Shown here: positions 3,084-58,358 of the stretch, piece after piece
Layout: the number at the start of each line of letters is the position of its first letter
Numbering within the stretch: the first letter of the stretch is position 1
Assembly: GCA_951406725.2 (NCBI GenBank)
Contig: OX597827.1
Location: 80,042,001-80,106,000, forward strand
DNA from: Octopus vulgaris
Taxonomy: Eukaryota
DNA length: 64,000 nt
Reading direction: 5' to 3'
Position numbers and translations under genes: made by a program
Notes under the pieces: generated by a model
Seen by the model: only the letters and a program-made list of their open reading frames with translations
Database searches by the model: none
What the model was told of the DNA's origin: nothing

Positions 3084-5432
3084 CCGTGTAGATTTCTGGA
3101 GTGTTCTGTTCATTGTAGACATCTTCCAGTCATCTGGATAGTAATGGCTCCTCGAATGACCATATCTGTCTGACATCTCTCCTCGATTACCTGACATCAC
3201 AGGTACACTGTTGTTACCTTGATAGATCAACTGTCTCATCTCATTGCGACATTGGTATGCCTGTTTCTCTTCTGCTGTTCTTTCAGATGAGCTATTTCTC
3301 ACATTGTTACATCTCACAATACACAGGGTTATAGAAACCACAATAGCTATAGATACTATCACAGCTGCTACTACAATGATAATCAACAATGTCGCATCTA
3401 TTGTGTTATCACTTGGTAGGTGCACAGCTGTGAACATTGGTGACGTCTTGTTACTAACAGTCAGTGTCAAAGACACACTAGTTGTTGCTGACAGAACTGG
3501 AGTACCACTGTCTTTCACAACAAACTCAAGCTCATATGATCCGGCATCATTTTGGTAAACTGTGCGAGAGTAAGATAACACACCAGTGAACGAATCCAGT
3601 TTAAATAACTGTCTCTCGTTACCTGAAACGATTTCATACCTGAGAAAAGCATTCATGTGACTGTCTATATCAGATGCTTTCAGAACTGTGATGTCGTTCT
3701 TACTTTGCGGATGATAATGGACATTAAGAGTGAAAGGGTCAACACTAGGAAATGTAAAATATGGAGCATTATCATTTCTATCCAATACTTCCACTTCAAC
3801 ATTCACTGTGTTATTCAGAGATGGGCTTCCATTGTCTTTCACAAAAACCTCAAACTCATAGAAATCTCTGTGTTCTCTGTCTAAAGACTGGTTTGTTGAA
3901 ATAAAGCCAGAGTTGATAATCTGGAATGGCAGACGATATTGCTGTTTATTTCTCAGAGAATAAGACAATTCACCTCCCTTACCAATATCTGGGTCTGTAG
4001 CATTGATAAAGCCAATAGGGAAATTAGCTTTGTCATTCTCATAGGTAAGGAACTTGAATGTGTCTTTCGTAAAGTGTGGTTCTACATCATTCACATCCAA
4101 CACTTGGATTGACAGATCTTTATCAGTTTTCAGAGCAGGTAATCCTTTATCTTCACACGACACAGTAAAGTGATAATGTTCCTGTGTCTCTCTGTCTACT
4201 GCTTTCTTTAGAACTATTTTATATTCCTTCGATCCCATTGACTGTAGTTTGAATGTGTCATCTTTGATATGACAGTTCACCTGTCCATTGTGTCCAACAT
4301 CATTGTCAGTGACCATCACATAAGCAATGAAACTACCAACTTTGATGTCTTCCAGAATGGTGGCTGTGTTGTGATTCTGTGTAGAAATATAGTTCACATC
4401 AATATTTGGAGGATTGTTCTGCTGGTTGATGACATTTACCATAACAGTTGCTATGGAACTGAGAGGAGGGTTGCCCCCATCTCTGGCTTCAATGTATAAT
4501 TTAAATGATTTCATTTTGTCAAATTGTGATTCTTTGTTTAAGAATATTTCTCCAGTTTTCTCATTTATAATAAAATTATCTTTTGATTCTGTTGACGTTG
4601 TTGGGCTGATATAATATGAAACTTTACCATTTTCTCCAATATCAGAGTCTTCTGCCATCATTACAACAACTGGTCTATTCCTTTGATGGTTATTTTGTAT
4701 AGAGACATTGTATGTTTTCTCGGAGAAAATTGGTCTGTTATCATTTTCATCTTCCACAGTTATGTGCACATTTAAGACACCTTGTTTGGGTGGAGTTCCT
4801 CCATCCTTAGCAATCACTTCTATATTATAGCTATCTTTCGTCTCTCTGTCTAACTTTTCTTGTAATATAATTTCAAGAAAAGATACTCCGTCTGCTCTTT
4901 TGAATGTGGACAAAGAAAACTGTTGGTTACTTCCCTTCAATTCATAATTCACTAATCTGTTCTGTAATCCAACATCTTTGTCAATGGCATTGGGGATGGA
5001 CTTTTTCATACCGTTTCTATCTCCTTCTCCAAATGTTAATTGAATTTCTTCGACAGGAAACTCTGGTTGATGGTCATTGATGTCTTCTATAATCACCTTA
5101 ATTTTCAATATCTTTATAAATTTGCCTGCTTTATGAACTGCTACCTTAATTGTGTGAAAGCATTCTTTCTCAAAGGTACACAGAGACTCAGCATCCAGTG
5201 TTTGTGTGGTGTATATCTTCCCAGTGTTGGTCACATTAAACAGCTGTGTTCCCTTCTGTTGCAACTGACTGAACGATAATAATGCAGTGTCCTTTAACTG
5301 GGAATCAGCAGTAATGTCTCCTATGTTGATAACAGGACTGTTCTCTTCTTTCACATGGTAAACAATGTCTTTAGAGACAGAACAGTGAAGCAGAGACTGT
5401 AATATCCATATTGCTATTAAGACCATCTTCAT
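3084..5432 (-). CDS. PCDH: Protocadherin G1 large exon (signal peptide, EC1-6, TM, proximal tail)
   Basis: Six cadherin repeats (DxNDxxP, DRE, AxDxG), EC1 C-x5-C, TM LLIIIVVAAVIVSIAIVVSITLCIV; acceptor TTTTCAG (exon starts 5460), ATG 5432, phase-0 donor CGG|GTAAGT. Confidence 0.93.
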
Positions 5433-7294
5433 TTGTTGAGTTAAATACCAGTCAATTAATCTGAAAATAAAAAAGGTACACAACTGTCAGTCACATTACA
5501 GAAACAAATAATAGATTTTTAATAGTTATTTCGTGAATTTCATTCACAATAATTTTGTAATTTTAATTGTAATTTGGGAGTTGAGTTGTAGACAATAAAA
5601 ATATAATCCACTCCATCCCAACAAGAAGAGAAAAACTCATTTGACTTGGATCAGACGTATAATTTAACAATCAGCAAAACAAAGTGAATTGTCCATCAGA
5701 TAAAAACCCAAACCAGAACACACACAGAAGAAAGACTGATATGCGAGGAAGGATGTTCATGTGTGGAAAAAACTCTTCATTGTCTTATCCCTAACACACA
5801 GCAAAAAAGACATCTTTTATTGTCTTTCTATTTCTTCCTACTTTGCCTTTATTAACCACAATAATATCTGAGACATTACTGAAGATGATGGTGTTGGTGA
5901 TGATATTATATTTGTAAAATCTTTAACAAAGCTTCATAATATCCATTGCTATCTTTAGACAGAGGGTAAGGTAGTTGCTATTATCAGCAGATCAAGCAAC
6001 AAGATTGAAGCATGCCAATGGTTCAAAGGATGACACAGAGTTACTTTCCCCCCCTCAAAGTCTGGCATTAAAACGATATAAAACAGATTTGAGAGACAAC
6101 ATAAATAAATGGAAAAACTTGGGAATTGCTATAAAAGGTGTATTTCTCTCTATAAGGTATTTAAACAAGGTCTTTCTAGTAAAAAATATGTCTGTGTGTA
6201 ATGGTGAATATATATTTCACACAATAACTTTAAACATTTACCTTATTTAATAATGACTAATAATTTGGGGAAAAGTTAAAATCACTAGGGAAATAGGGTA
6301 GAGAGGATTGTCAATGAAGAGGTCATATTAATTTAGAGAATTGGCAATTAAGGAAAAGACAAAAAATCTAAAATTAAAACTGGTCAATATTCTTCATTTA
6401 TCTATGATTCTCATGGTTGCATTGGATCAATTTTGTAAATTGTAATTAAAAATATTGAAACAAAAAGCTAGCAACATTATATATTCTCTTCCATATACAA
6501 ATGGCAATTAAGTTACAAAAATACAGTTATTACATTTTAAATGAAATAATATATTTTACAAAAAATTAAAATTAAATTACTTTTATTTTTACAAGAAATA
6601 TTGAATGACAGAAAAAGCTCCTCATTCAATACTGGAAATCTATATAAACGGCATTTAATTAAAAGATATTCATTAAACAAGACCAAAATTGGACACTGTT
6701 TCAGTATGAATACAACAAACAGATTAAAACATATAAAATCTTATATTAAATTCAGAAAGACTTAAACAATACCACAACACAATATTGATTATTTATGTTG
6801 ACACTAAACCACCATCTTGTCAACTATTCTCCCAGTTTCACTTTAATATTTTATATTAATATAACACATTCTTACATATAAACACAATAATGATACTTGA
6901 CTCTCTCAAAACATCCTTCACAAGAAACACTCAAATTCTTTTTTAAATACACACAATAAAGAACATCTTCTGGTTATATATTATACATTATCAATACTGA
7001 TAATAATAGGAAGATGTCTGCAAATAAGAGACAACAAACTGACTGGATTTAAATATATTTCACTTGAAAAATAACCATAATTAAATATTATTTCACACTT
7101 CCTAACAGCAAAATATCAATCATGAACATATAAATCTCAACAGAAAGCGTGTAACTGGCAGAGACCATCTTTAAATGTCTACTGACATAATTTCTATTTG
7201 TTATATTCTATAGTAAAAGATGGCTGAAGAAAGTTTCTACAACAATCATCAGTCAAATATCTTAATAATACAAAATAAACATTCATAGACTTAC

Positions 7295-7680
7295 ATTCAT
7301 TGTGTGTAAAATCCTTTGTTGTATAAACTGTGACTTGGTCCCAATGTTCTGTTGTTAATGGTTGTCTGTGTCACTGCTGCTATGGTGTGACAATGGCTTC
7401 ATGTTGATGGAATAGTGTTGGTGGTGAGTCAGTGGGAACCAGCAGTTCACTCTCAGTCTTCCTTTGTGGATGTGTGGTGTTTAGTGAGTGTGTGTGTGCA
7501 TATGCGTGTAAGAGAGAGAGAGAGAGAGGAGGGATGGGTGATGCTTGCTCCAGCCTCACACACACAAGATGCTGTGTTTCCCTCAAAGAGAAGAGAGAAA
7601 GAAAGAAAGAGAACAAACAATATCAGCTCCACTAACAGTCAGCCATAAGAAGTCCATATAACACCAACATGTCTGATGTA
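7295..7680 (-). promoter_or_regulatory. Conserved leader exon/promoter cassette (probable exon 1 of G1)
   Basis: Copy of 33-420; donor ATGAAT|GTAAGT; next downstream large-exon acceptor at 5460. Confidence 0.6.
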
Positions 7681-8255: not shown

Positions 8256-8374
8256 TCAGTTAGTAATGACATCTGGTGTTGAAGGTAACTGTCTCTCTGG
8301 AGGTTTCACATATCTGTCTTGATACTGTTGTCTTTCAGGGTTCACTGGTGTATCCTGTTGGCTACCATAGATCC
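8256..8374 (-). CDS. PCDH: Protocadherin G2 terminal exon B
   Basis: Near-identical to 998-1116; acceptor TTTTGCAG; TGA at 8258-8256. Confidence 0.85.
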
Positions 8375-8544: not shown

Positions 8545-8698
8545 CTGACATTGCTGGTATTTCTTCATACTGTCTGCTTGACCGCTCACTCCAGCACTGT
8601 CCACTGCTCTTACGACTGGTCAATGTGTCAGTGGGATAGTGAGAAGATGGTCTGTTGTCTCCATAAGATGTCACCTCAATCGGTTGACTGTATTTCTG
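8545..8698 (-). CDS. PCDH: Protocadherin G2 tail exon A
   Basis: 154 bp, CAGCAG acceptor, GTAGG donor, encodes QYEEIP. Confidence 0.85.
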
Positions 8699-9920: not shown

Positions 9921-12269
9921 CTTTGTAGATTTCTGAAGTGTTCTGTTCATTGTAGACATCTTCCAGTCATCTGGATAGTAATGGCTCCTCGAATGACCAT
10001 ATCTGTCTGTCATCTCTCCTCGATTACCTGACATCACAGGTACACTGTTGTTACCTTGATAGATCAACTGTCTCATCTCATTGCGACATTGGTATGCCTG
10101 TTTCTCTTCTGCTGTTCTTTCAGATGAGCTATTTCTCACATTGTTACATCTCACAATACACAGGGTTATAGAAACCACAATAGCTATAGATACTATCACA
10201 GCTGCTACTACAATGATAATCAACAATGTCGCATCTATGGTGTTATCACTTGGTAGGTGCACAGCTGTGAACATTGGTGACGTCTTGTTACTAACAGTCA
10301 GTGTCAAAGACACACTAGTTGTTGCTGACAGAACTGGAGTACCACTGTCTTTCACAACAAACTCAAGCTCATATGATCCGGCATCATTTTGGTAAACTGT
10401 GCGAGAGTAAGATAACACACCGGTGAACGAGTCCAGTTTAAATAACTGTCTCTCGTTACCTGAAACGATTTCATACCTGAGAAAAGCATTCATGTGACTG
10501 TCTATATCAGATGCTTTCAGAACTGTGATGTCGTTCTTACTTTGCGGATGATAGTGGACATTAAGAGTGAAAGGGTCAACACTAGGAAATGTAAAATATG
10601 GAGCATTATCATTTCTATCCAATACTTCCACTTCAACATTCACTGTGTTATTCAGAGATGGGCTTCCATTGTCTTTCACAAAAACCTCAAACTCATAGAA
10701 ATCTCTGTGTTCTCTGTCTAAAGACTGGTTTGTTGAAATAAAGCCAGAGTTGATAATCTGGAATGGCAGACGATATTGCTGTTTATTTCTCAGAGAATAA
10801 GACAATTCACCTCCCTTACCAATATCTGGGTCTGTAGCATTGATAAAGCCAATAGGGAAATTAGCTTTGTCATTCTCATAGGTAAGGAACTTGAATGTGT
10901 CTTTCGTAAAGTGTGGTTCTACATCATTCACATCCAACACTTGGATTGACAGATCTTTATCAGTTTTCAGAGCAGGTAATCCTTTATCTTCACACGACAC
11001 AGTAAAGTGATAATGTTCCTGTGTCTCTCTGTCTACTGCTTTCTTTAGAACTATTTTATATTCCTTCGATCCCATTGACTGTAGTTTGAATGTGTCATCT
11101 TTGATATGACAGTTCACCTCTCCATTGTGTCCAACATCATTGTCAGTGACCATCACATAAGCAATGAAACTACCAACTTTGATGTCTTCCAGAATGGTGG
11201 CTGTGTTGTGATTCTGTGCAGAAATAAAGTTCACATCAATATTTGGAGGATTATTGTGTTGGTTGATAACATTTACCATAACCGTTGCTATGGAACTGAG
11301 AGGAGGGTTGCCCCCATCTCTGGCTTCAATGTATAATTTAAATGATTTCATTTTGTCAAATTGTGATTCTTTGGCTAAGAATATTTCTCCAGTTTTCTCA
11401 TTTATAATAAAATTATCTTTTGATTCTGTTGATGTTGTTGGGCTGATATAATATGAAACTTTACCATTTTCTCCAATATCAGAGTCTTCTGCCATCATTA
11501 CAACAACTGGTCTATTCCTTTGATGGTTATTTTGTATAGAGACATTGTATGTTTTCTCGGAGAAAATTGGTCTGTTATCATTTTCATCTTTCACAGTTAT
11601 GTGCACATTTAAGACACCCTGTTTGGGTGGAGTTCCTCCATCCTTAGCAATCACTTCTATATTATAGCTGTCTTTCGTCTCTCTGTCTAACTTTCCTTGT
11701 AATATAATTTCAAGAAAAGATACTCCGTCTGCTCTTTTGAATGTGGACAAAGAAAACTGTTGGTTACTTCCCTTTAATTCATAATTCACTAATCTGTTCT
11801 GTAATCCAACATCTTTGTCAATGGCATTGGGGATGGACTTTTTCCTACCTTTTCCATCTCCTTCTCTAAGTTCCAGTTTAATTTGTTCCACAGGAAACTC
11901 TGGTTGATGGTCATTGATGTCTTCTATAATCACCTTAATTTTCAATATCTTTATAAATTTACCTGCTTTATGAACGGCTACCTTAATTGTGTGAAAGCAT
12001 TCTTTCTCAAAAGTACACAGAGACTCAGCATCCAGTGTTTGTGTGGTGTATATCTTCCCAGTGTTGGTCACATTAAACAGCTGTGTTCCCTTCTGTTGCA
12101 ACTGACTGAACGATAATAATGCAGTGTCCTTTAACTGGGAATCAGCAGTAATGTCTCCTATGTTGATAACAGGACTGTTCTCTTCTTTCACATGGTAAAC
12201 AATGTCTTTAGAGACAGAACAGTGAAGCAGAGACTGTAATATCCATATCGCTATTAAGACCATCTTCAT
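9921..12269 (-). CDS. PCDH: Protocadherin G2 large exon
   Basis: Near-identical twin of G1; exon starts 12297, ATG 12269, donor AAG|GTAAGC. Confidence 0.93.
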
Positions 12270-14137: not shown

Positions 14138-14525
14138 CTTCATTGTGTGTAAAATCCTTTGTTGTATAAACTGTGACTTGGTCCCAATGTTCTGTTGTTA
14201 ATGGTTGTCTGTGTCACTGCTGCTATGGTGTGACAATGGCTTCATGTTGATGGAATAGTGTTGGTGGTGAGTCAGTGGGAACCAGCAGTTCCCTCTCAGT
14301 CTTCCTTTGTGGATGTGTGGTGTTTAGTGAGTGTGTGTGTGCATATGCGTGTAAGAGAGAGAGAGAGAGAGAGAGGAGGGATGGGTGATGCTTGCTCCAG
14401 CCTCACACACACAAGATGCTGTGTTTCCCTCAAAGAGAAGAGAGAAAGAAAGAAAGAGAACAAACAATATCAGCTCCACTAACAGTCAGCCATAAGAAGT
14501 CTATATAACACCAACATGTCTGATG
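14138..14525 (-). promoter_or_regulatory. Conserved leader exon/promoter cassette (probable exon 1 of G2)
   Basis: Copy of 33-420; donor ATGAAG|GTAAGT. Confidence 0.6.
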
Positions 14526-16392: not shown

Positions 16393-18759
16393 CCTTGTTG
16401 ACTTCTGGAGTGTTCTGTTCATTGTCGACGTCTTCCAGTCTTCAGGATAGTAATGGCTCCTCGAATGACCATATCTGTCTGACATCTCTCCTCGATTACC
16501 TGACATCACAGGTACACTGTTGTTACCTTGATAGATCAACTGTCTCATCTCATTGCGACATTGGTATGCCTGTTTCTCTTCTGCTGTTCTTTCAGATGAG
16601 CTATTTCTCACATTGTTACATCTCACAATACACAGGGTTATAGAAACCACAATAGCTATAGATACTATCACAGCTGCTACTACAATGATAATCAACAATG
16701 TCGCATCTATTGTGTTATCACTTGGTAGGTGCACAGCTGTGAACATTGGTGACGTCTTGTTACTAACAGTCAGTGTCAAAGACACACTAGTTGTTGCTGA
16801 CAGAACTGGAGTACCACTGTCTTTCACAACAAACTCAAGCTCATATGATCCGGCATCATTTTGGTAAACTGTGCGAGAGTAAGATAACACACCAGTGAAA
16901 GAGTCCAGTTTAAATAACTGTCTCTCGTTACCTGAAACGATTTCATACCTGAGAAAAGCATTCATGTGACTGTCTATATCAGATGCTTTCAGAACTGTGA
17001 TGTCGTTCTTACTTTGCGGATGATAGTGGACATTAAGAGTGAAAGGGTCAACACTAGGAAATGTAAAATATGGAGCATTATCATTTCTATCCAATACTTC
17101 CACTTCAACATTCACTGTGTTATTCAGAGATGGGCTTCCATTGTCTTTCACAAAAACCTCAAACTCATAGAAATCTCTGTGTTCTCTGTCTAAAGACTGG
17201 TTTGTTGAAATAAAGCCAGAGTTGATAATCTGGAATGGCAGACGATATTGCTGTTTATTTCTCAGAGAATAAGACAATTCACCTCCCTTACCAATATCTG
17301 GGTCTGTAGCATTGATAAAGCCAATAGGGAAATTAGCTTTGTCATTCTCATAGGTAAGGAACTTGAATGTGTCTTTCGTAAAGTGTGGTTCTACATCATT
17401 CACATCCAACACTTGGATTGACAGATCTTTATCAGTTTTCAGAGCAGGTAATCCTTTATCTTCACACGACACAGTAAAGCGATAATGTTCCTGTGCCTCT
17501 CTGTCTACTGCTTTCTTTAGAACTATTTTATATTCCTTCGATCCCATTGACTGTAGTTTGAATGTGTCATCTTTGATATGACAGTTCACCTGTCCATTGT
17601 GTCCAACATCATTGTCAGTGACCATCACATAAGCAATGAAACTACCAACTTTGATGTCTTCCAGAATGGTAGCTGTGTTGCGATTCCGTGTAGAAATAAA
17701 GTTCACATCAATATTTGGGGGATTGTTGTGTTGGTTGATGACATTTACCTGAACAGTTGCTATGGAACTGAGAGGAGAGTTACCACCATCTCTGGCCTCT
17801 ATAAATAACTCATAAATAACTTTCTCTTGTAGACTTGAGGTTTCTGTTAGAAATATCTCCCCTGTGTCTGCTTTCAACTGGAAATGTGTACTATCCATTT
17901 CTGATGTCATTGGACTAAAATGATACGATATTTTCCTATTGTCCCCACTGTCAGAATCCTGTGCTGACACTGTGACGACTGGTATGTTGGTTTTATGTGT
18001 TTTTGCGACTGACACATTATATATTCTCTTTGAAAAAACAGGTCGATTATCATTTTCATCGTCAACTACAATCTTAACATTTAACACACTCTGCTTGGCT
18101 GGAGTTCCTCCATCTTCTGCAATAACTTCTACATTGTATAATTCTTTTACCTCCCTGTCTAACTTTTCTTCTAGAACAATCTGAAGGTATGATACACCAT
18201 CAGCATGTTTGAATACTTCCAGAGAAAACGAGTGATTAGATTGCGATAATTTGTAATGAATTAATCTGTTTTTAAAACCAACATCTTTGTCAATGGCATT
18301 TGCAATGGACTTTTTCATTCCTTTGCCATCTCCTTCTCCAAAGTGTAAAGTTATTTCCTTGTCTGGAAACTCAGGTTGGTGGTCATTGATGTCTTCTATG
18401 ATTATTTTGACTTTTAAAATTCTTACAAAAGTTTTCTGTTTGTGAACAGCTACTTTAATAATCTTCGAACACTCCTTATTATATCTACACAGTGATTCAG
18501 CATCTATTGTTTGAAGAGTGTAGAGTTTCCCTGTTGTTGTGACATTAAATAATTCTGCCTCCTTTTGTTGGAGTTGATTAAATGTAATAACTTTTAGTTC
18601 TTCTGATGCAAAGGACTTCAAAAATTGTTTACTGGATGCAATAGAACCTATATATGTGATGGGACTGTTTTCTTCTTTCACCCGGTAAGTGAGGTTCAGA
18701 CAGTGATAGCACTGAATTATTAAAGACATCAGCCACAGAATTCTCCACATCTTTAACAT
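16393..18759 (-). CDS. PCDH: Protocadherin G3 large exon
   Basis: Six EC repeats and TM; acceptor TTTTTACAG (exon starts 18763), ATG 18759 (MLKMWRIL), donor AGG|GTAAGT. Confidence 0.92.
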
Positions 18760-18924
18760 ATCACTGTAAAAATAAGAAAATAAAATGCGAAAAAGCAACT
18801 CATCAATTAACTGTTTCAAGTAATCATGTTTTGGATTCATAAGATAAGAAGAAGACAGTTCTATAATTCAAACACAAGTGATGCAAGGAGCTAACGAGAC
18901 AGAAAATCTTATGAAATAGGATTG

Positions 18925-19010
18925 CCAGCTCCTGTCAAACCGTCCAACCCATGCCAGCATAGCAAAGAGGCGTTAAATGATGATGATGATGATAATGATG
19001 ATGGTGATGT
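18925..19010 (+). mobile_element. Retroposon 3' end with (TGA)n tail
   Basis: aaccgtccaacccatgccagcat...gttaaatgatgatgat; related copies at ~34360-34500, 50970-51080, 51190-51242, 63150-63303. Confidence 0.6.
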
Positions 19011-19924: not shown

Positions 19925-20418
19925 AAACCAATGACACAACAGAGGAGGTCAAGACACATTGAAACTCCGACGTCTGGCAGCTGACTTGGCAGACACCCAT
20001 AAAATTATTAATCATCTTACATACAATAACTCTGAGCACCTTTTCAAACTCCACCCATCTAACACCCGTGGACATGTTTACAAAGTAAGAAAACAGCACA
20101 GCTCCCATGACTTCAGGAAACATTTTTTCACACTGAGAGTTGCTGAAGCATGGAACAAACTGCCGGCATCAGTTGTTAGTTGTCAGAGCACTGCATCCTT
20201 CAAAACTTCCATGCTTCCTGAGATTCGCCAACACTACACCTGATCTTCTCCCCTCCATACACACACAAGCATGTATCTGACTCATACATTGTTCGCTTTC
20301 CAGACATTTCTACATTACTGCATGTACTTTATATGCACTTTCTGACAAGTTGTGGTGCACCTGAGCACTGTATACAATAATTTCATTATTATTATTATTA
20401 TTATTATTATATTATTAT
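19925..20418 (+). mobile_element. 5'-truncated CR1/L2-clade LINE (RT C-terminus, 3'UTR, ATT tail)
   Basis: ORF 19959-20243 RRLAADL..HKII...TRGH.YKV...RKHFF..RV...WNKLP..VV....SFK is the typical CR1 ORF2 C-terminus; ends in (ATT)n. Confidence 0.85.
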
Positions 20419-26719: not shown

Positions 26720-27527
26720 CTGGTGACAAAACAGAACATTATATAAGCATAAATGCATTGTCAACTGCCAGGAAGAGTTTACATCATCTCCGATGGGAAT
26801 CTAACAACGTTATATAATATGAACAGTCAGAATCAAATGTTGATTACATCTGGGATAAACAACCACACGATATGATACCTTCATCAACAAAACCTAACTT
26901 TATAAATAACACACGTGGTTAACCAGGTACATTTTAGAGATTGTAATAGTTTGACACATAGTCAACATGCTTGAAGCATAAAACACTGGACTCTGTTTTA
27001 GGACCAACACATTATCCATTATTTAAGACTAAACAGAAAAGACAACAAAAGGAAATCTGAATAAACTAAAATCATTCATGTGTACAAACGGTTTGAAAGT
27101 GGAATACGTTGGTTTGCAATGAGAATCAGGATACGCAGAACCTTCCTCAATAACTCCCAACACAGGCTATAACTACATCACTCAGAACTTAGAGCTTATT
27201 TCATCATACACAGATGATGTAATTCGCTATAAAGTAAGGGAATTTCTAAATTAACTGAAAGAATAAAAGATTAAGATATTATTTCTAGGAGAATATTCAG
27301 GTCACATGTATTTTGCTATTAAACAGAAGCTTCAAGAAAATAGATTGAAATGAAAATTGTTCTGCAGTATCATTTATATAATTATATTATTGTAATTGTT
27401 CTATAATTAATCTGGTGTTGAATGATATAGAGTTATGCATAGAATTCTGCTTGCAATTCAGAGTTACTATTTACTTCAGGTAATGTCTAAATATTAAGAA
27501 ATTAATTACAGAATGTTTAATACTTAC

Positions 27528-29904
27528 CTTTGTAGACTTTTGAAGTGTTCTGCTCATTGTTGATGTCTTCCAGTCTTCAGGATAGTAATGGCTCCTCGAA
27601 TGACCATATCTGTCTGTCATCTCTCCTCGATTACCTGACATCACAGGTACACTGTTGTTACCTTGATAGATCAACTGTCTCATCTCATTGCGACATTGGT
27701 ATGCCTGTTTCTCTTCTGCTGTTCTTTCAGATGAGCTATTTCTCACATTGTTACATCTCACAATACACAGGGTTATAGAAACCACAATAGCTATAGATAC
27801 TATCACAGCTGCTACTACAATGATAATCAACAATGTCGCATCTATTGTGTTATCACTTGGTAGGTGCACAGCTGTGAACATTGGTGACGTCTTGTTACTA
27901 ACAGTCAGTGTCAAAGACACACTAGTTGTTGCTGACAGAACTGGAGTACCACTGTCTTTCACAACAAACTCAAGCTCATATGATCCGGCATCATTTTGGT
28001 AAACTGTGCGAGAGTAAGATAACACACCAGTGAACGAGTCCAGTTTAAATAACTGTCTCTCGTTACCTGAAACGATTTCATACCTGAGAAAAGCATTCAT
28101 GTGACTGTCTATATCAGATGCTTTCAGAACTGTGATGTCGTTCTTACTTTGTGGATGATAGTGGACATTAAGAGTGAAAGGGTCAACACTAGGAAATGTA
28201 AAATATGGAGCATTATCATTTCTATCCAATACTTCCACTTCAACATTCACTGTGTTATTCAGAGATGGGCTTCCATTGTCTTTCACAAAAACCTCAAACT
28301 CATAGAAATCTCTGTGTTCTCTGTCTAAAGACTGGTTTGTTGAAATAAAGCCAGAGTTGATAATCTGGAATGGCAGACGATATTGCTGTTTATTTCTCAG
28401 AGAATAAGACAATTCACCTCCCTTACCAATATCTGGGTCTGTAGCATTGATAAAGCCAATAGGGAAATTAGCTTTGTCATTCTCATAGGTAAGGAACTTG
28501 AATGTGTCTTTCGTAAAGTGTGGTTCTACATCATTCACATCCAACACTTGGATTGACAGATCTTTATCAGTTTTCAGAGCAGGTAATCCTTTATCTTCAC
28601 ACGACACAGTAAAGTGATAATGTTCCTGTGTCTCTCTGTCTACTGCTTTCTTTAGAACTATTTTATATTCCTTCGATCCCATTGACTGTAGTTTGAATGT
28701 GTCGTCTTTGATATGACACTTCACCTGTCCATTGTGTCCAACATCATTGTCAGTGACCATCACATAAGCAATGAAACTACCAACTTTGATGTCTTCCAGA
28801 ATGGTAGCTGTGTTGTGATTCTGTGTAGAAATAAAGTTCACATCAATATTTGGGTGATTGTTGTGTTGGTTGATGACAGTTACCATAACAGTTGCTATGG
28901 AACTGAGAGGAGGGTTGCCCCCATCTCTGGCTTCAATATATAATTTAAATGTTTCTTCATTAAAGTTTGTATTCTTTGAGAACAATATTTCTCCTGTGAT
29001 TTTATCTAACTTGAAATATTGTTTGTTTTTCTCGAGTGTCTTTGGACTAAAATAATAAGAAATCTCTCCATTTTTACCGATATCCAGATCTTCAGCTGAT
29101 ACAATAACAACAGCTTTGTTTTTGTCTTGTGTTTTCTTTACAGAAATGTTGTATAGTTTTTGTTGAAATACAGGTAAATTATCATTTTCATCTTGAACTT
29201 CTATGTTTACCTTTAAAATACTTTCTTTGGATGGACTTCCTCCATCCTTAGCAATGACTTCCAGACTATAGTGATCTTTCACTTCTCTATTTAATTTACT
29301 TTCTAGAACAATCTCTAGTCGAGATATTCCATCAGCTCTTTTAGAAACTAATAATGAAAACATTTCCTCATTGTTCTTTAAATGATAATTAATTACACTA
29401 TTTAAAACTCCAACATCTTTGTCAATGGCATTTGGAATGGACTTTTTCATTCCTTCTCTGTCTCCTTCTCCAAACTGCAAAGTGATTTCCTTCTCTGGAA
29501 ACTCAGGTTGGTGGTCATTGATGTCTTCTATAACTACTTTAATTTTCAAGATTTTCAAGAAGTTTTTTTTTGTGAACAGCAACTTTAACTTCCTGGAAAC
29601 ATTCCTTTTCAAAAGTACAGAGGGCTTCAGCATCCAGTGTTTGTATTGTGTAGATTTTCCCACTTTCAGAAACATTAAATATCTGTGTTCCTTTAAGTTT
29701 CAGTTGATTAAACGTAATGTGACCAATGTCTCCAGATGGCACTACGTCTTGAAACTGTGGATCAGCTGTAATGTCTCCAACAAATGTATGTGTGTTTGTC
29801 TCTTCCTTTACCTTGTAGATTAAATTAAAACTGAGACAGCAGGGGAAGAAGAAAGTTAGCAAAACTGAAAAGCTCAACATATTTTCTTTTGTCAGTGAAA
29901 ACAT
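27528..29904 (-). CDS. PCDH: Protocadherin G4 large exon, frameshifted in an A9 run (assembly error or pseudogene)
   Basis: ORFs 29539-29910 (signal peptide, EC1) and 27471-29675 (rest) join at the T9 run 29563-29571; exon starts 29927, ATG 29904 or 29880, donor AAG|GTAAGT. Confidence 0.85.
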
Positions 29905-33643: not shown

Positions 33644-33779
33644 CTGATGATACTGCTGGTATTTCTTCATAGTGTGTACTTGACCCTTCACTCCAGCACT
33701 GTTCACTATCTTTATGATTGCTCAACATGTCAGTGGGGTATTCAAATGATGTCACTGCTACCGGCTGACTATAGTTTTG
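33644..33779 (-). CDS. PCDH: Protocadherin G5 tail exon A, divergent (QNYSQPVAVTSFEYPTDMLSNHKDSEQCWSEGSSTHYEEIPAVSS)
   Basis: 136 bp, acceptor TTTCACAG, donor CAG|GTAGAG, phase 0 to 1. Confidence 0.8.
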
Positions 33780-37044: not shown

Positions 37045-37248
37045 ATTCTGTTGTGTCTGGGGAGAGTCATTTTCTTTTTGTGCCTTGTAATGTAACACAC
37101 TCACCGGTAAAATTTCCACTTATTTCTTATTTTTATAAAAATTAAAATTTAAATTAAAAAAAAAAAGAATATAGTGGAAATTTTACTGGTGAGTGTGTTA
37201 AATTATAAGGCACAAAAAGAAAATGACTCTCCCCAGACACAACAGAAT
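37045..37248. repeat. Inverted repeat with ~85 bp arms
   Basis: attctgttgtgtctggggagagtc...tttccact / agtggaaa...gactctccccagacacaacagaat. Confidence 0.85.
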
Positions 37249-37510: not shown

Positions 37511-39868
37511 CTTAAAGTTTATTGGTAAACTTCTGTTCATTGTCGATGTCTTCCAGTCTTCAGGATAGTAATGGCTCCTCGAATGACCAAATCTCTCTGA
37601 CATCTCTCCTCGATTACCTGACATCACAGGTACACTGTTGTTACCTTGATAGATCAACTGTCTCATCTCATTGCGACATTGGTATGCCTGTTTCTCTTCT
37701 GCTGTTCTTTCAGATGAGCTATTTCTCACATTGTTACATCTCACAATACACAGGGTTATAGAAACCACAATAGCTATAGATACTATCACAGCTGCTACTA
37801 CAATGATAATCAACAATGTCGCATCTATTGTGTTATCGCTTGGTAGGTGCACAGCTGTGAACATTGGTGACGTCTTGTTACTAACAGTCAGTGTCAAAGA
37901 CACACTAGTTGTTGCTGACAGAACTGGAGTACCACTGTCTTTCACAACAAACTCAAGCTCATATGATCCGGCATCATTTTGGTAAACTGTGCGAGAGTAA
38001 GATAACACACCAGTGAACGAATCCAGTTTAAATAACTGTCTCTCGTTACCTGAAACGATTTCGTACCTGAGAAAAGCATTTATGTGACTGTCTATATCAG
38101 ATGCTTTCAGAACTGTGATGTCGTTCTTACTTTGCGGATGATAGTGGACATTAAGAGTGAAAGGGTCAACACTAGGAAATGTAAAATATGGAGCATTATC
38201 ATTTCTATCCAATACTTCCACTTCAACATTCACTGTGTTATTCAGAGATGGGCTTCCATTGTCTTTCACAAAAACCTCAAACTCATAGAAATCTCTGTGT
38301 TCTCTGTCTAAAGACTGGTTTGTTGAAATAAAGCCAGAGTTGATAATCTGGAATGGCAGACGATATTGCTGTTTATTTCTCAGAGAATAAGACAATTCAC
38401 CTCCCTTACCAATATCTGGGTCTGTAGCATTGATAAAGCCAATAGGGAAATTAGCTTTGTCATTCTCATAGGTAAGGAACTTGAATGTGTCTTTCGTAAA
38501 GTGTGGTTCTACATCATTCACATCCAACACTTGGATTGACAGATCTTTATCAGTTTTCAGAGCAGGTAATCCTTTATCTTCACACGACACAGTAAAGTGA
38601 TAATGTTCCTGTGTCTCTCTGTCTACTGCTTTCTTTAGAACTATTTTATATTCCTTCGATCCCATTGACTGTAGTTTGAATGTGTCGTCTTTGATATGAC
38701 AGTTCACCTCTCCATTGTGTCCAACATCATTGTCAGTGACCATCACATAAGCAATGAAACTACCAACTTTGATGTCTTCCAGAATGGTAGCTGTGTTGTG
38801 ATTCCGTGTAAAAATAAAGTTCACATCAATATTTGGAGGATTGTTGTGTTGGTTGATGACACTTACCATAACAGTTGCTATGGAACTGAGAGGAGGGTTG
38901 CCCCCATCTCTGGCTTCTATGAATATTTTCGATGTATCCAATTTACCTAAATTTAAATTTGTAGACAATAAAATTTCTCCATTTTTTCTATTTAATGTAA
39001 AATATTTAGTCAATGTTTCAGATGTTATAGGACTAAAATAGTAAGATATTTCACCATTGTTACCAATATCAAAGTCATAAGCAGATAATGTAACAATTGC
39101 CTTATGTTTTGGATGTGTGTCATTTACATTAATTCTGTAAATTCTCTGAGAAAAAACTGGTGAATTATCATTAACATCTAAGATATTTATTTCAACATTT
39201 AGAATTGTTTGTTTTGGAGGATTCCCACCATCTTCAGCAATAACTTCAAAATTGTAAACAGCTTTAATTTCTCTGTCCAGTTTACCTTCCAAGACGATAT
39301 CTAGGTGAGAAGTTCCATCTGCTCTTTTAAAATCTTGTAGAGTAAAAGGATAATTTCGTTTTTTCTTTAATTTGTACATAATTAATCGATTTTGACTACC
39401 AACATCCTTGTCTGTGGCGTCTGGGATTGATCTTCTCCTGCCTTGGCCATCCATTTCAGAAAACTGTAAGATGATATGATCGACAGGGAATCTAGGCCAG
39501 TGGTCATTGATGTCTTCGATTATGATTTTGATCTTTAGAATTTTTATAAACTGTTTTCCTTTGTGAGCTGCAACGTTGATTGTATGAATGCACTGTTTTT
39601 CAAGAATACAGAGAGTCTCAGCATCCAATGGATGAACAGTGAACATTTTCCCTGGTCTAGTGATATTAAATAGATGTCTTCCATTCTGCTGTAGCTGGAT
39701 GAATGTGAGTAAGTGTCTTTCATGGTGTTTTAAACTGTCCCAGAGACCAGAATCTTCAGCAATATCTCCAATATAAGGGTTAGCAGTATTTTCTTCCTCC
39801 ACTACATAGATAAGTTCATTGTAGCAACAGTGGAAGAAAGCCAAGATGATAGATAAATAAGTTAGCAT
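37511..39868 (-). CDS. PCDH: Protocadherin G5 large exon
   Basis: Six EC repeats and TM; exon starts 39921, ATG 39868, donor AAG|GTAAGT. Confidence 0.93.
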
Positions 39869-44311: not shown

Positions 44312-45224
44312 CTGATGAGTAATAAAAGGTATTTATCAGAGGGTATGGCATAATACAAACATAGGCCGTAAACACAGCCCCTACTTCCAGACCACACAAT
44401 TAAATAAAAAAAGATTGTGTTAATAATATTGATAATATTAGTAATATTATATTAATTTTAACAGATACTTCTATGGTCAACCCTACAAAATTCACTGTGG
44501 AAATCAATACTAGAGAGTGTTGTCTAAAATTATTTGTTGCAGTAGATTTATTCCGTGTCTGCAGAATGAATGGAAATGACCAAAGTTTAGTCTGATCAAC
44601 AGTGTTCTTTTTCTTCCTTATTTCTATCCTTAATAAGTTCATCGGAGTGACTCATGTTTAGCAATCCATATAATAATTCGTTTATAATCATTTGTATTCA
44701 TTAAATACAAAATAATCGTTTTTGAGAAACAATTCCAAGCCCTTTCCCCTTGACTTTTCAATTTTGTTATCTTCAGCTTTATTTAAGACTAGAAAAATGA
44801 CAACAGAGAGAAGCACAGTTCCTGCAGCTCTAATCACAGTAAAATAAGTAATTTCCTCTAACAACTATTTAATAGATTCCTTGTATGACTCATATTTTCC
44901 TTCCCTTAACCCTGCCTCGGACATCTTCAGCTGATTCAGTCCACACCCACCTCCCCACCATTCCCTTGCAGCGATAGTTATTTCCCTTCCACCATTACTT
45001 CCAGATATCAATACAAACAGGAAATTGAATTTCCCCATTAATGTTGACAGTGTATGACCTTTCTAAGCTAAAAGACCCCAGAATTACAACACAGAATCTG
45101 AATCTGTCTAGCATTCTTCAACTAGCAAGGATATCAGATATAACCAGGTAGATACGGTTAATGCCATATACAAATGGGTAGATAGTGGCGATATCATATA
45201 AGAGATGGTTAATGGTGTGTATGT

Positions 45225-45250
45225 ACATACATACATACACACACACACAC

Positions 45251-45287
<37 letters not shown>

Positions 45288-45440
45288 TAATATATATATA
45301 CATATATATATAATATATATATACATATATATATAATATATATATACATATATAATATATATATATACATATATAATATATATATACATATAATATATAT
45401 ATACATATTCATATATATATACATATACATATATATATAC

Positions 45441-45471
<31 letters not shown>

Positions 45472-45869
45472 CACATACATACATATACATTTACACATAT
45501 ATATATTTACATACACACACACACATATAAATTAGAATAAAACCACCTTTTATAAATTCCATAATGAAAAATTAAATTATACCATTTAGAAAAATTACAT
45601 GTTATAGAAGGATTAAATATAAGATAAAACATATAACAATGATTAAGTAATGTGCAAAATAATAAATAAAATATATATATTGGGTAAAATAATGACACGT
45701 GTTTCATGGCTATATTTAAGAAGTGATAATAGTAATAATAATAGTAGTATTCGTAAAATCACTTCAATATAAATATAGCTACTCTTCAGGTTAAAGATAA
45801 CAACAATAAAATGAGTTTATTGTTAATTTATTTTTTATAATTAATTAACGCACACACACACACACACAC

Positions 45870-45916
<47 letters not shown>

Positions 45917-46107
45917 GGAGTAAACACATAAATGTGAAACAAGGTGGGAAAAAGAGTACTCAAATACCAGAGGTTGAGTAATATGCTTTATTTAAAAGCA
46001 GCAGAAACTTAATAAAAGCTGTTACTTGGAGTTTCACGTTCCCGTTCGTCGGGAACGTGAAACTCCGATTAACAGCTTTTGTTAAATTTCTGCTGCTTTT
46101 AAATAAA

Positions 46108-46148
<41 letters not shown>

Positions 46149-46183
46149 TATATGTATATATACATATATATATATGTATATAC

Positions 46184-46255
<72 letters not shown>

Positions 46256-46277
46256 GTATATATGTATACATATATAC

Positions 46278-46318
<41 letters not shown>

Positions 46319-46322
46319 TGTG

Positions 46323-46357
<35 letters not shown>

Positions 46358-46587
46358 GTATACATATATACATACATATATACATATATATGTATACATA
46401 TACGTATACATATACGTATATACATATATATATATACATATATACATATATATGTATACATATAATATATATATATATGAAGGCATATATATTTATATGT
46501 ATATGTACATATATATGAATGTATGTATATATGCATGATGTATGTGTATATATGTACATATATGTTAAGATAAATATTCTTGGAAGT

Positions 46588-46640
<53 letters not shown>

Positions 46641-46670
46641 CATATATATATATCATATATATATACATAC
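45225..46670. repeat. (TA)n/(TACA)n/(CA)n microsatellite field
   Basis: Tracts at ~45225-45530, 45850-45913 and 46109-46670. Confidence 0.9.
45914..46108. mobile_element. Putative Penelope-like fragment with foldback, inserted in (TA)n
   Basis: 59 bp arms 45986-46044 / 46050-46108, 5 nt loop, hammerhead-like GACGA-ACG-GGAA-CGT-GAAAC. Confidence 0.5.
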
Positions 46671-54627: not shown

Positions 54628-54794
54628 CTGTAAAATACAATAGTAACAAGATATAGATAATATAATTGATACTTTCTCTGGAGTTGTATGCATCCATCTT
54701 TGGTATAAAACAACTGCCTACTTTTTTACCAATATCAATCAGTTTGGCAAAATAACTGTAAAATAATACAGTTCTCTATTTAAGAGATGAAGAA

Positions 54795-55016
54795 TTATGT
54801 ACATTATTTACATTTGATGGATATTTGTCCTCAACTTGTTTGTTGATAACACAATGTTTCGGCTGATATACCCTCCAGCCTTCTTCAGATGCCTTGGGGA
54901 AATTTCGAACCTGGGTTCTCATTCCTTAGGTATTTTTAGATGTTAGAATCTTGAGGTTAAGAGCGCGAGCTACTAACCTCAAGATTCCAAGTTCGATTCC
55001 AAGCAGTGACCTGAAC

Positions 55017-55074
<58 letters not shown>

Positions 55075-55218
55075 TTGAAAAATACCTAAGGAATGAGAAC
55101 CCAGGTTCGAAATTTCCCCAAGACACCTGATGAAGGCTGGAGGGTATATCAGCCGAAACGTGTTAACAGCAAACAAGATGAGGACAAATATCTGTCGAAT
55201 GTAAATAATGTAAATAAT
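54795..55218 (+). mobile_element. Non-autonomous Penelope-like element: tRNA-like head, (AAT)n, hammerhead-containing arm, preceded by an inverted copy of that arm
   Basis: Arms 54795-54945 / 55070-55218 are reverse complements; CTGATGA-A-GGCTG..CAGCC-GAAAC at 55127-55159; B-box GTTCGATTCC at 54991-55000. Confidence 0.65.
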
Positions 55219-55537
55219 GAACTGTAAAATAATTTCTTATGCAGGCACAAGGTCCTTTTTATGGAAAGAATACAATCGATGGAACTGCACTCCATACATA
55301 ACTGGTATAAAAGGCAAACTCCAGCAGCATTTTGATTCAGTATACAACTAGATATAAATACTGTCAAATAATTAATCCCATGCTTTACCATTTCTGATGA
55401 AAGAAAAATTTCAAGCAAAATTACCAATCAACACTAAAGCAGAATCAAAGAAAAGGTAATGATGATGATGACAAACTGAAATAAGAGGAGGAAATAGAAA
55501 AAGACATAGAATACTATTTACTGACAGATTATAAAAT

Positions 55538-55940
55538 TAACCCCTTCAATACCATCCCACCTGACACCACACATAGCTGCATGAAATAAAATTACTGCTT
55601 TAACACTTTTGATACCAACCCGACTGAAACCAGTTCTGGCTCTGAGTACAAATGTCTTGTTTTCATAAGTTTTCAATTAAAATCTTCCAACAAACCTTAG
55701 TCACAATTTATGTTCCTAACACTAGCTGAATGATAATAAAGTTATTTTACTAAATTTTTTGTTATGTTTAAAGTAATTGAAAGAAAGACAGAGCATCCCA
55801 AAATAAATACAGTAATGAAAGGGTTAAAGTAATATAGATTAAAGCTTTTCCAACAAAATTTCATGTTCATTCACATCCCGAACACCAGCCTAATTCAACA
55901 GTTATTTTAGTAAATTCTTTATTATTTCCAAAATTAATTA
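55538..55940. mobile_element. piggyBac-type (TTAA) MITE at 55600-55827 nested in an older related copy
   Basis: ttaacactttt...aaagggttaa termini; similar sequence starts ttaacccct at 55538 and resumes after 55827. Confidence 0.6.
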
Positions 55941-56000
55941 AGACAAAGGTGATGTGTTTGAAAAGCAACAATATAGTAACAAAACAGTGAAAAAGCTTAC

Positions 56001-58358
56001 CCTGATAGACTTCTGAAGTGTCCGACTCATTGTGGATGTCTTCCAGTCTTCAGGATAGTAATGGCTCCTCGAATGACCATATCTGTCTGACATCTCTCCT
56101 CGATTACCTGACATCACAGGTACACTGTTGTTACCTTGATAGATCAACTGTCTCATCTCATTGCGACATTGGTATGCCTGTTTCTCTTCTGCTGTTCTTT
56201 CAGATGAGCTATTTCTCACATTGTTACATCTCACAATACACAGGGTTATAGAAACCACAATGGCTATAGATACTATCACAGCTGCTACTACAATGATAAT
56301 CAACAATGTCGCATCTATTGTGTTATCACTTGGTAGGTGCACAGCTGTGAACATTGGTGACGTCTTGTTACTAACAGTCAGTGTCAAAGACACACTAGTT
56401 GTTGCTGACAGAACTGGAGTACCACTGTCTTTCACAACAAACTCAAGCTCATATGATCCGGCATCATTTTGGTAAACTGTGCGAGAGTAAGATAACACAC
56501 CAGTGAACGAATCCAGTTTAAATAACTGTCTCTCGTTACCTGAAACGATTTCGTACCTGAGAAAAGCATTCATGTGACTGTCTATATCAGATGCTTTCAG
56601 AACTGTGATGTCGTTCTTACTTTGTGGATGATAGTGGACATTAAGAGTGAAAGGGTCAACACTAGGAAATGTAAAATATGGAGCATTATCATTTCTATCC
56701 AATACTTCCACTTCAACATTCACTGTGTTATTCAGAGATGGGCTTCCATTGTCTTTCACAAAAACCTCAAACTCATAGAAATCTCTGTGTTCTCTGTCTA
56801 AAGACTGGTTTGTTGAAATAAAGCCAGAGTTGATAATCTGGAATGGCAGACGATATTGCTGTTTATTTCTCAGAGAATAAGACAATTCACCTCCCTTACC
56901 AATATCTGGGTCTGTAGCATTGATAAAGCCAATAGGGAAATTAGCTTTGTCATTCTCATAGGTAAGGAACTTGAATGTGTCTTTCGTAAAGTGTGGTTCT
57001 ACATCATTCACATCCAACACTTGGATTGACAGATCTTTATCAGTTTTCAGAGCAGGTAATCCTTTATCTTCACACGACACAGTAAAGTGATAATGTTCCT
57101 GTGTCTCTCTGTCTACTGCTTTCTTTAGAACTATTTTATATTCCTTCGATCCCATTGACTGTAGTTTGAATGTGTCGTCTTTGATATGACAGTTCACCTG
57201 TCCATTGTGTCCAACATCATTGTCAGTGACCATCACATAAGCAATGAAACTACCAACTTTGATGTCTTCCAGAATGGTAGCTGTGTTGTGATTCTGTGTG
57301 GAAATAAAGTTCACATCAATATTTGGAGGATTGTTCTGCTGGTTGATGACATTTACCTTAACAGTTGCTATGGTACTGAGAGGAGGAATACCTCCATCTC
57401 TGGCTTCAATGTATAATTTTAAAGAATTTTTTGTGTCAACCTCTAAAGATTGTACTAAGAAAATTTTTCCAGTACTTTTATCTAAATGAAAGTATCTCTT
57501 CATTTTTTCTGCAGTCTTTCTACTGAAATAATAAGATATTTTACCATTCCTGCCAATATCTAAATCACTGGCAGATAATGTGACTACTGGAATGTTCTTT
57601 TTATGTTTATGTTCTATAGAAACATTGTAGATACTTTGAGAAAACTGTGGTCTGTTATCATTTTCGTCTTTTACAGATATTTTCACTTTTAAAACAGATT
57701 GTTTTGGTGGAGTTCCCCCATCTTTAGCAATGACTTCAATATTGTAACTGTCTTTTGTTTCTCTGTCTAATTTCTCTTCTAAAATAATTTCTAATGATGA
57801 TATGCCATCAGCTTGTTTGGCAACTAATAAAGAAAAATGTTCATTATCCTTTTTTAATTCATATGTTACCAAGCTGTTCTTATGACCCATATCTTTATCA
57901 ACAGCATTGGGTATTGATCTTTTCGTGCCTTTACCATCTGTTTCAGAAAACTGAATGCTGACCTCTTCAGTTGGAAACTCAGGTTGGTGGTCATTGATGT
58001 CTTCTATTATGACTTTAATCTTTAAGATCTTCATAAATGTCTTGGATTTGTGAACAGCAACTTTAACGATTTCAAAACATTCTTTCTCATAACTACACAC
58101 AGACTCAGCATCCAATGTCTCAATAGTGTACAGTTTACCTGTTCTCGTCACATTGAACAACTGTTCTCCCTTTTGTTGGAGTTGACTAAATGTAATCAAA
58201 TCCTTATTCTTTAAGAAGGAGCTGTCTGCTTTCTGTAAGTCAGTAGCAATGTCCCCTACATAGGTATAGGGACTATTCTCTTCTTCAACATGGTATGTGA
58301 TATCTTCACTTAGGGAACAGTGGAAGAAAGTCAGTAAAACACACAGAAGTCGCAACAT
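56001..58358 (-). CDS. PCDH: Protocadherin G7 large exon
   Basis: Six EC repeats and TM; acceptor TATTTCAG (exon starts 58414), ATG 58358 (MLRLLCV), donor AGG|GTAAGC. Confidence 0.93.

What the first reader, a model, noticed from the sequence alone, without database searches (positions are those of the whole stretch)
3084..58358. Variable/constant architecture inside a single exon: divergent EC1-3, near-identical EC4-TM-tail in all seven genes
Seen: from about YIEARDGG.PPLS (end of EC3, ~4500 in G1) to the donor, ~1.4 kb is almost identical at the DNA level in G1-G7, with only a handful of substitutions. The signal peptide and EC1-EC3 differ extensively. Known: vertebrate clustered Pcdhs use EC1-4, especially EC2/3, for homophilic trans specificity and membrane-proximal ECs for promiscuous cis pairing, and share constant exons by splicing; octopus Pcdhs expanded independently as whole-gene tandem arrays. 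Inference: here the constant region is maintained by concerted evolution rather than shared exons, a convergent neuronal barcode design.
Basis: partly seen in the sequence, partly recalled or inferred. Interest (0 to 1): 0.85.

Follow-up and report, generated by a model that had tools for sequence, protein, structure and literature searches.

The report
Octopus protocadherins homogenised except specificity domains
Dozens of side-by-side octopus cell-adhesion genes have nearly letter-identical back halves but old, distinct EC2-EC3 front domains, most likely because the copies keep overwriting each other everywhere else, a pattern known from fish and mammal protocadherins and here likely reached independently.

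Summary
Real, not an assembly artefact. The seven genes are four-exon octopus protocadherins in a 25-gene array; a neighbouring 29-gene array has its own constant half (77% alike). In the window dS is 1.26 in EC1-3 and 0.028 in EC4-tail. Argonauta paralogs show the same split: 14 residues are fixed by species in the constant half, none in EC1-3, where cross-species orthologs survive. Contigs of two public DNA runs carry the constant half at about 40 times the depth of G3's variable half. Corrections: G1/G2 are 97% alike throughout; EC1 is also homogenised within subfamilies, so the spared core is EC2-EC3; each gene's own exon 3 and putative first exon are homogenised too. The likely mechanism is DNA-level gene conversion. 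Fugu clustered protocadherins show the same layout (PMC1852091), and conversion was already suggested for cephalopod arrays in general (PMC9068888). I found no domain-resolved cephalopod report in 10 searches, with key papers unreadable. The barcode function is inferred only. The scan had noted similar regional conversion in arthropod ionotropic receptors, not in protocadherins. Interest 0.58.

The parts
3084..5432 (-). G1 large coding exon (signal peptide, EC1-6, TM, proximal tail); 2349 nt, in frame with exons 3 and 4 (873 aa)
3084..4490 (-). G1 homogenised block, end of EC3 to donor; fully homogenised from EC4 start at 4406
4491..5432 (-). G1 variable part; 97% to G2, 63-69% to G3-G7; its EC1 is 99% identical within subfamily A
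9921..12269 (-). G2 large exon; recent near-copy of G1 except for intron 2
16393..18763 (-). G3 large exon; old singleton EC1-3 orthologous to Argonauta P0028; acceptor at 18764/18763 matched by the end of a presumed RNA contig
27528..29880 (-). G4 large exon, frameshifted in an A run near 29563-29571 (pseudogene or consensus error, untested)
37511..39868 (-). G5 large exon; old singleton EC1-3 orthologous to Argonauta P0034
47868..50237 (-). G6 large exon
56001..58358 (-). G7 large exon; EC1 97-99% identical to subfamily B genes just outside the window
1273..1426 (-). Exon 3 of G1 (154 nt), homogenised from acceptor to donor; copies start at 8698, 15564, 26719, 44314, 54627; the G5 copy near 33648-33751 is diverged (77%)
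998..1116 (-). Exon 4 of G1 with the stop codon; copies downstream of each gene (e.g. near 8300, 15170, 25155, 61830)
7290..7480 (-). Putative non-coding first exon of G1, ending in a GT donor; copies hold the shared 16-mer at 14225, 24428, 32661, 42884, 53117, 60922 and 120
26720..27527 (-). G4 intron 2, 95% identical over 554 nt to intron 2 of L013, 96 kb away, although their EC1-3 are only 66-67% alike

Best explanation
These tandem octopus protocadherin genes are likely kept alike by repeated DNA-level gene conversion between neighbours, which has made EC4-EC6, the transmembrane segment, the tail exons and (within subfamilies) EC1 nearly identical, while EC2-EC3 remain old and distinct, likely because selection removes conversions that erase their binding specificity. 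Shown: the split at synonymous sites, two arrays with separate constant halves, species-specific constant halves with trans-species EC2-3 orthologs, mosaic variants, and an intron shared between unrelated genes. Inferred: conversion as the main process, with some unequal crossing-over. Inferred by analogy only: EC2-EC3 give isoform-specific antiparallel trans binding, the uniform EC5-6 allows free cis pairing, and the uniform tail gives one signalling output, so that conversion does the job of vertebrate constant exons.
For: dS 1.26 vs 0.028 in the window, 0.90 vs 0.031 over 25 array-1 genes, 0.46 vs 0.040 over 29 array-2 genes, but 0.73 between arrays in the constant half, so these sites are free to change. 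14 species-fixed residues in EC4-tail vs 0 in EC1-3 (25 own, 24 Argonauta proteins); 39 vs 1 for array 2 (29 own, 10 Argonauta). In 4 of 6 pairs examined the Argonauta protein is closer in EC1-3 than any own paralog, yet in all 6 the constant half is closer to own paralogs. A species clade is rejected in EC2-3 (p-AU 3.65e-9) and not in EC4-tail (p 0.41), on 20 rows chosen after seeing the first tree. Four-gamete conflicts in 268 of 630 and 575 of 1431 site pairs. G4 and L013 share intron 2. EC1 pS 0.04, 0.07 and 0.13 vs EC2/EC3 0.24-0.43 in three subfamilies. Hypervariable sites fall on EC2 strands A and B, the EC3 helical loop and the EC3 FG loop, roughly where vertebrate specificity pairs 111:294, 125:253 and 128:257 map by pairwise alignment.
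Against: No 10-codon window has pN above pS in any of the three subfamilies, so positive selection is not shown, and EC2-3 could be spared simply because diverged DNA converts poorly. The GC signal of conversion is weak: GC3 is higher in EC4-6 than EC2-3 (Fisher p<0.001 in G5, G7, L033; 0.10 in G3; not significant in the outliers L001, L034), but at fourfold sites EC5-6 of array 1 (0.26-0.28) are no higher than EC3. Cross-species tests are on proteins only. The mapping to vertebrate interface positions is approximate and has no surface-exposure control. Four-gamete counts include the end of EC3, and recurrent mutation can add to them.
Confidence: 0.8

Rival explanations
1. Assembly collapse or polishing wrote one consensus over all constant halves.
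For: The array is repeat-rich, 7 of 57 genes examined have frameshifts (for 40 of them, including G4 in an A run), and read depth suggests more copies than are assembled.
Against: Copies carry private and mosaic variants. Single contigs from DNA runs X4 and X17 (different organism labels and studies) have depth 2594 and 2072 in the constant half vs 53-64 in G3's EC1-3. O. sinensis and Argonauta proteins show the same split, with different constant residues in Argonauta. X4 could be the window's own sample.
Confidence: 0.02
2. Unequal crossing-over within the identical blocks, with gain and loss of copies, does most of the homogenising and conversion is minor.
For: G1/G2 are a whole-unit duplicate whose match ends at homogenised exons. 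Neighbours share introns (L015-L017, G3 with subfamily A). Depth of about 40-fold vs 26 assembled copies hints at copy-number variation.
Against: Old singleton EC1-3 genes with Argonauta orthologs persist inside the array with fully updated constant halves. The 154-nt exon 3 is homogenised between unalignable introns. An intron is shared across 96 kb between unrelated genes.
Confidence: 0.1
3. Conversion is real, but EC2-3 are spared passively, because they diverged early, and do not encode isoform-specific binding.
For: No window with pN above pS. Synonymous divergence is high in the same segments. Single-cell data report ubiquitous or cell-type-enriched octopus protocadherins, about 21 per neuron (PMC9712504 passages), which does not show stochastic barcoding.
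Against: EC2-3 stay diverged in three young subfamilies while both flanks (EC1 and EC4) are homogenised, the same domains as in independently expanded vertebrate clusters (PMC4978886).
Confidence: 0.3
4. Strong nucleotide-level constraint, for example RNA structure for editing, keeps the constant half unchanged without exchange.
For: Protocadherin transcripts are reported to be heavily edited in cephalopods (stated in PMC6339937).
Against: The constant half differs between arrays (dS 0.73) and by fixed residues between species; parallel fixation of the same 14 changes in about 24 genes needs exchange.
Confidence: 0.02
5. Homogenisation is templated by spliced RNA or cDNA.
For: Identity follows exons and stops at splice sites for exon 3; the 3' half of the message is the most uniform.
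Against: All 23 exon-3 copies recovered are flanked by intron sequence; introns themselves are transferred; EC1 and the 5' exon are homogenised too.
Confidence: 0.04

Closest known systems
Regional gene conversion in fugu clustered protocadherins (Yu et al. 2007, PMC1852091; passages read)
   Same: One large exon with a >99% identical 3' part and a 60-80% identical 5' part, a discrete boundary, and a different converted sequence in each subcluster; it also caused misassembly there.
   Different: The boundary here is at the end of EC3, not in EC4 or EC5. Fugu genes splice to shared constant exons, whereas each octopus gene has its own tail exons, which are homogenised as well. The GC3 rise is clear in fugu and weak here. 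The expansions are reported as independent.
Mouse Pcdh-alpha and other vertebrate clusters (PMC4978886 passages, citing Noonan et al. 2004, which I could not read)
   Same: EC1 96%, EC4 85%, EC5 98% identical vs EC2 69% and EC3 59% in mouse alpha isoforms; conversion spares EC2-3.
   Different: The octopus arrays are more uniform in EC4-6; there are no shared constant exons; CTCF promoter control was not tested.
Coleoid protocadherin sub-arrays (Albertin et al. 2022, PMC9068888 passages)
   Same: Two octopus sub-arrays (34 and 27 genes in O. bimaculoides) of multi-exon, whole-gene duplicates; homogenisation through gene conversion is proposed.
   Different: The passages read give no domain-resolved pattern and no cross-species test; the main supplementary file was not held.
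Antiparallel EC1-4 protocadherin dimer (PMC5001838 abstract and results part 1; PMC5106212 section 10)
   Same: EC1/EC4 give non-selective affinity and EC2/EC3 give specificity, which matches uniform EC1 and EC4 with variable EC2-3 here; the fold matches protocadherin EC1-4.
   Different: No binding data exist here for the octopus proteins; identity to solved chains is 27-33%.

Membership tests
Protocadherin (six-EC type) | Six cadherin repeats with a protocadherin-type EC1, one TM segment and a cytoplasmic tail | tested here: met
   PF08266 at EC1 plus five PF00028 stretches; best sequence and fold matches are protocadherins; named octopod relatives at 82-92%
Vertebrate clustered Pcdh alpha/gamma | Variable exons spliced to one shared set of constant exons | tested here: not met
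   Exon 3 follows 24 of 25 array-1 large exons within the fetched stretches and exon 4 follows 23; splicing to another gene's tail exons cannot be excluded
Vertebrate clustered Pcdh alpha/gamma | Orthology to vertebrate clusters | not tested
   No tree with vertebrate rows was built; independent expansion is taken from PMC9068888; top fold matches mix delta-2 and clustered types
Vertebrate clustered Pcdh alpha/gamma | CTCF-bound conserved promoter element and stochastic promoter choice | not testable with these tools
   A shared 16-mer lies in the putative first exon; what binds it is unknown
Vertebrate clustered Pcdh alpha/gamma | Strict homophilic trans binding and promiscuous cis binding | not testable with these tools
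   Needs aggregation or SPR assays; only sequence variation was mapped
Regional gene conversion of fugu/zebrafish type | 3' part near-identical at synonymous sites, 5' part diverged, discrete boundary | tested here: met
Regional gene conversion of fugu/zebrafish type | Converted sequence specific to subcluster and to lineage | tested here: met
   Two arrays 77% alike; species-fixed residues
Regional gene conversion of fugu/zebrafish type | Mosaic exchange among paralogs | tested here: met
   Four-gamete conflicts; shared introns; G4/L019 96% alike in the first half of EC2 only
Regional gene conversion of fugu/zebrafish type | Raised GC3 in the converted region | tested here: inconclusive
   GC3 0.33-0.39 vs 0.19-0.28, but inconsistent at fourfold sites

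The most novel reading that the evidence does not exclude
Octopods independently built a vertebrate-style neuronal self-recognition code: whole-gene arrays in which gene conversion stands in for shared constant exons, giving every isoform the same EC1/EC4 affinity surface, cis surface, tail and first exon, while selection guards EC2-EC3 as homophilic barcodes, some of them kept as orthologs since the Octopus-Argonauta split.
Probability: 0.4. Interest if true: 0.82.

Novelty: new variant of a known kind. Interest (0 to 1): 0.58.

Why it matters
Whether cephalopod protocadherins work as vertebrate-like identity tags is open; PMC9068888 makes no claim about function. The pattern names the experiment: about 54 isoforms that differ mainly in EC2-EC3, with candidate residues and natural chimeras. 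The same domains escaping conversion in a reportedly independent expansion points to a shared structural logic. There is also a practical consequence (inference): identical 3' halves would collapse short-read assemblies and blur read mapping, isoform counts and editing calls for these genes. One O. bimaculoides model holds two front halves and no back half (P0001).

Tried and rejected
Complex prediction of two copies of G3 EC1-4 gave no answer (score 0.01, mark 0.32, alignment not used); it is no evidence either way. The search for squid or cuttlefish paralogs failed: the representative search returned mostly giant cadherins, and the 10 looked up were octopod or vertebrate, so decapodiform arrays are untested. 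The positive-selection scan found no window with pN above pS. GC-biased conversion was inconclusive. A uORF in the first exon was dropped because array 2 lacks the ATG. Recent whole-gene duplication followed by fast adaptive change in EC1-3 was rejected by dS and orthology. The careful tree did not finish, so quick trees with SH-aLRT only were used. Albertin 2015 and Noonan 2004 were not held, and Wang and Ragsdale 2017 was not looked up. The only held supplement of PMC9068888 was 3,805 characters with no hit; its unseen supplementary notes may bear on novelty. The place look-up in earlier findings was empty. Small-share and zero-share runs were not used.
Full report
What is there. The window is G000:C14:80042001-80106000. 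It holds seven minus-strand genes with six cadherin repeats, one transmembrane segment and a tail. The best sequence and fold matches are protocadherins. The closest named proteins are from Octopus sinensis, O. vulgaris, O. bimaculoides and Argonauta hians, and several array genes outside the window are 99.7-100% identical over EC1-3 to proteins named O. vulgaris, so this is an Octopus genome. Each gene has four exons by sequence: a putative non-coding first exon, the large exon, a 154-nt exon 3 and a stop exon. For G1 the three coding exons join in frame to 873 aa and match the C-termini of annotated relatives. In runs guessed to be RNA, one contig stops aligning exactly at G3's predicted acceptor (18763), and joints across introns 2 and 3 appear in those runs and not in the two DNA runs. 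The upstream partner exon was not displayed, so exon 1 remains inferred.

The observation. From EARDGG (G1 4490) to the donor (3084) the genes are nearly identical. The 21 pairs differ by 8-19 of 1293 nt over EC4-tail, EC5 shows no difference, and pooled dS is 0.028 against 1.26 in EC1-3. In EC1-3, 20 of 21 pairs are 57.8-69.3% identical; G1/G2 are 97.4%. G4 is frameshifted in an A run.

The wider locus. A search with the constant half scored 40 of 207 candidates: 25 at 99-100%, one at 97%, one at 82% and 13 at 76-77%. A search with one of the last group scored 40 of 193 and gave 29 at 99-100%. So there are two adjacent arrays, each with its own constant half. I fetched 50 loci. dS for EC1-3 vs EC4-tail is 0.90 vs 0.031 in array 1 (25 genes) and 0.46 vs 0.040 in array 2 (29 genes), while the constant halves of the two arrays differ by dS 0.73. 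EC1 is a second homogenised block: pS 0.041, 0.069 and 0.133 in subfamily A (6 genes), subfamily B (13) and array 2 (27, two divergent genes left out), against 0.24-0.43 in EC2 and EC3. The window hides this because G3-G6 are old singletons. The flanking genes L002, L020 and L001 are progressively less homogenised.

Artefact test. In DNA run X4 one 402-nt contig with no mismatch to G3's constant half has word depth 2594, against 57.5 and 64.3 for the contigs on G3's EC1-3. In X17, of another organism label and study, the figures are 2072 against 53.2 and 54.9. These are single-contig depths, not copy numbers, and X4 may be the window's own sample. They still show that exact words of the constant half are shared by dozens of copies in raw data. 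The roughly 40-fold ratio exceeds the 26 assembled copies, which may mean missing copies or copy-number variation.

Cross-species test. I analysed the first 80 of the 120 listed hits and assigned 24 Argonauta proteins to array 1 and 10 to array 2 by constant-half identity. Argonauta paralogs are 73, 64 and 61% identical in EC1, EC2 and EC3 and 98% in EC4-6. Fourteen positions in EC4-tail are at least 90% fixed for different residues in the two species, and none in EC1-3; for array 2 the counts are 39 and 1. The EC1-3 tree pairs G3, G5, L002 and L019 with single Argonauta proteins at SH-aLRT 99-100. In the constant-half tree 23 of 24 Argonauta rows form one group at 98. G3 differs from its Argonauta ortholog at 63 of 298 EC1-3 residues (nearest own paralog 117) but at 31 of 430 constant residues (own paralogs, median 7). 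Two further candidate pairs were not closer than own paralogs in EC1-3. On 10 plus 10 rows chosen after the first tree, a species clade is rejected in EC2-3 (p-AU 3.65e-9) and not in EC4-tail (0.41). Exon 3 carries two species-fixed residues, and subfamily B EC1 three. This is concerted evolution: a change that arises in one lineage spreads to nearly all copies there.

Mechanism. Variants in the constant half are mosaic (268 of 630 and 575 of 1431 site pairs fail the four-gamete test). Introns are mostly unalignable: 3 of 120, 7 of 253 and 22 of 171 pairs share introns 1, 2 and 3. G4 and L013, 96 kb apart and 66-67% alike in EC1-3, share intron 2 at 95% over 554 nt, whereas the near-twins G1 and G2 do not. 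That points to DNA exchange anchored in the identical exons, not to a spliced template. Unequal crossing-over likely contributes. The GC signature is weak. Why EC2-3 escape is inferred. Sites with high amino-acid entropy cluster at G7 130-148 in both arrays, on alternating positions of EC2 strand A and on strand B, and in subfamily B also at 283-288 and 322-324, the EC3 helical loop and FG loop of the model. Pairwise alignment to mouse gamma-B4 and gamma-A9 puts the published specificity pairs 111:294, 125:253 and 128:257 (PMC5106212 section 10) in these segments, give or take a few residues because numbering differs. There is no surface-exposure control, and no window has pN above pS.

Comparison with what is known. 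The layout is that of fugu clustered protocadherins (PMC1852091, passages; pointer from earlier scan notes) and of mouse alpha isoforms (PMC4978886, passages). Vertebrate binding logic is from PMC7811963 (passages), PMC5001838 (abstract and first half of results) and PMC8901172 (passages). For cephalopods, PMC9068888 (passages) describes two octopus sub-arrays of whole-gene duplicates and proposes homogenisation by conversion. PMC6339937 (parts 1-2 of 5 and a term search of its supplement) says the clustered genes are extremely similar through duplication or conversion. PMC9712504 and PMC13218726 (passages) add nothing on domains. Ten searches found no domain-resolved cephalopod report. Albertin 2015 and Noonan 2004 were not held, Wang and Ragsdale 2017 was not read, and the main supplement of PMC9068888 was not available, so prior mention cannot be excluded.

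Verdict. The genes are protocadherins and work like converted fish clusters, but are not members of the vertebrate alpha/gamma type, since there are no shared constant exons. What differs from the known cases is the reportedly independent origin, and that conversion also covers each gene's own tail exons and first exon. The process is known, the cephalopod case looks undescribed at this resolution, and the barcode function is an untested inference. New variant of a known kind; interest 0.58.

Noticed in passing
window 7290-7480 and copies; arrays at C14 79.91-80.22 Mb and 80.40-80.68 Mb: A putative non-coding first exon whose ~150-nt core is 96-100% identical within each array but differs between arrays except around a shared 16-mer. 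The 16-mer has 52 exact hits in G000, 51 of them in the two arrays; the reversed control has 1. It may be a cluster-wide regulatory element like the vertebrate CSE; it contains Sox-like and TALE-like words (labels recalled, not from a call).
   Followed up: partly
window 29563-29571; L012, L016, L021, L027, L029, L030: Frameshifted or broken large exons in 7 of the 40 genes checked; the G4 break lies in an A run. Pseudogenes or consensus errors.
   Followed up: no
window 998-430 and equivalents: Each putative first exon begins only about 0.3-0.8 kb downstream of the previous gene's stop exon, so 3' ends and promoters are tightly packed; read-through transcripts were reported for octopus protocadherins in PMC9712504.
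   Followed up: no
window 44314 (G6 exon 3 acceptor): Exon 3 starts with CAG after the acceptor AG, a tandem acceptor; G6 has lost the first AG. Annotated relatives differ by the one Gln.
   Followed up: no
L003, C14 80005536 and 80006803: Two copies of the first-exon core lie 1.3 kb apart below L003, followed by a ~65 kb gap to L002 that was not fetched.
   Followed up: no
L034 (C14 80313132), L001, L020: Genes at the array edges or between arrays are only partly or not homogenised, and have close orthologs in other octopods.
   Followed up: partly
P0001 (O. bimaculoides model, 1102 aa): It holds two EC1-4 front halves and no EC5-6, as expected if identical back halves collapsed in that assembly.
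   Followed up: partly
window 18920-18960, 19930-20350, 37045-37248, 45216-46669: Very high-copy interspersed repeats in G3 intron 1, a 200-nt inverted repeat, and long AT microsatellites.
   Followed up: no
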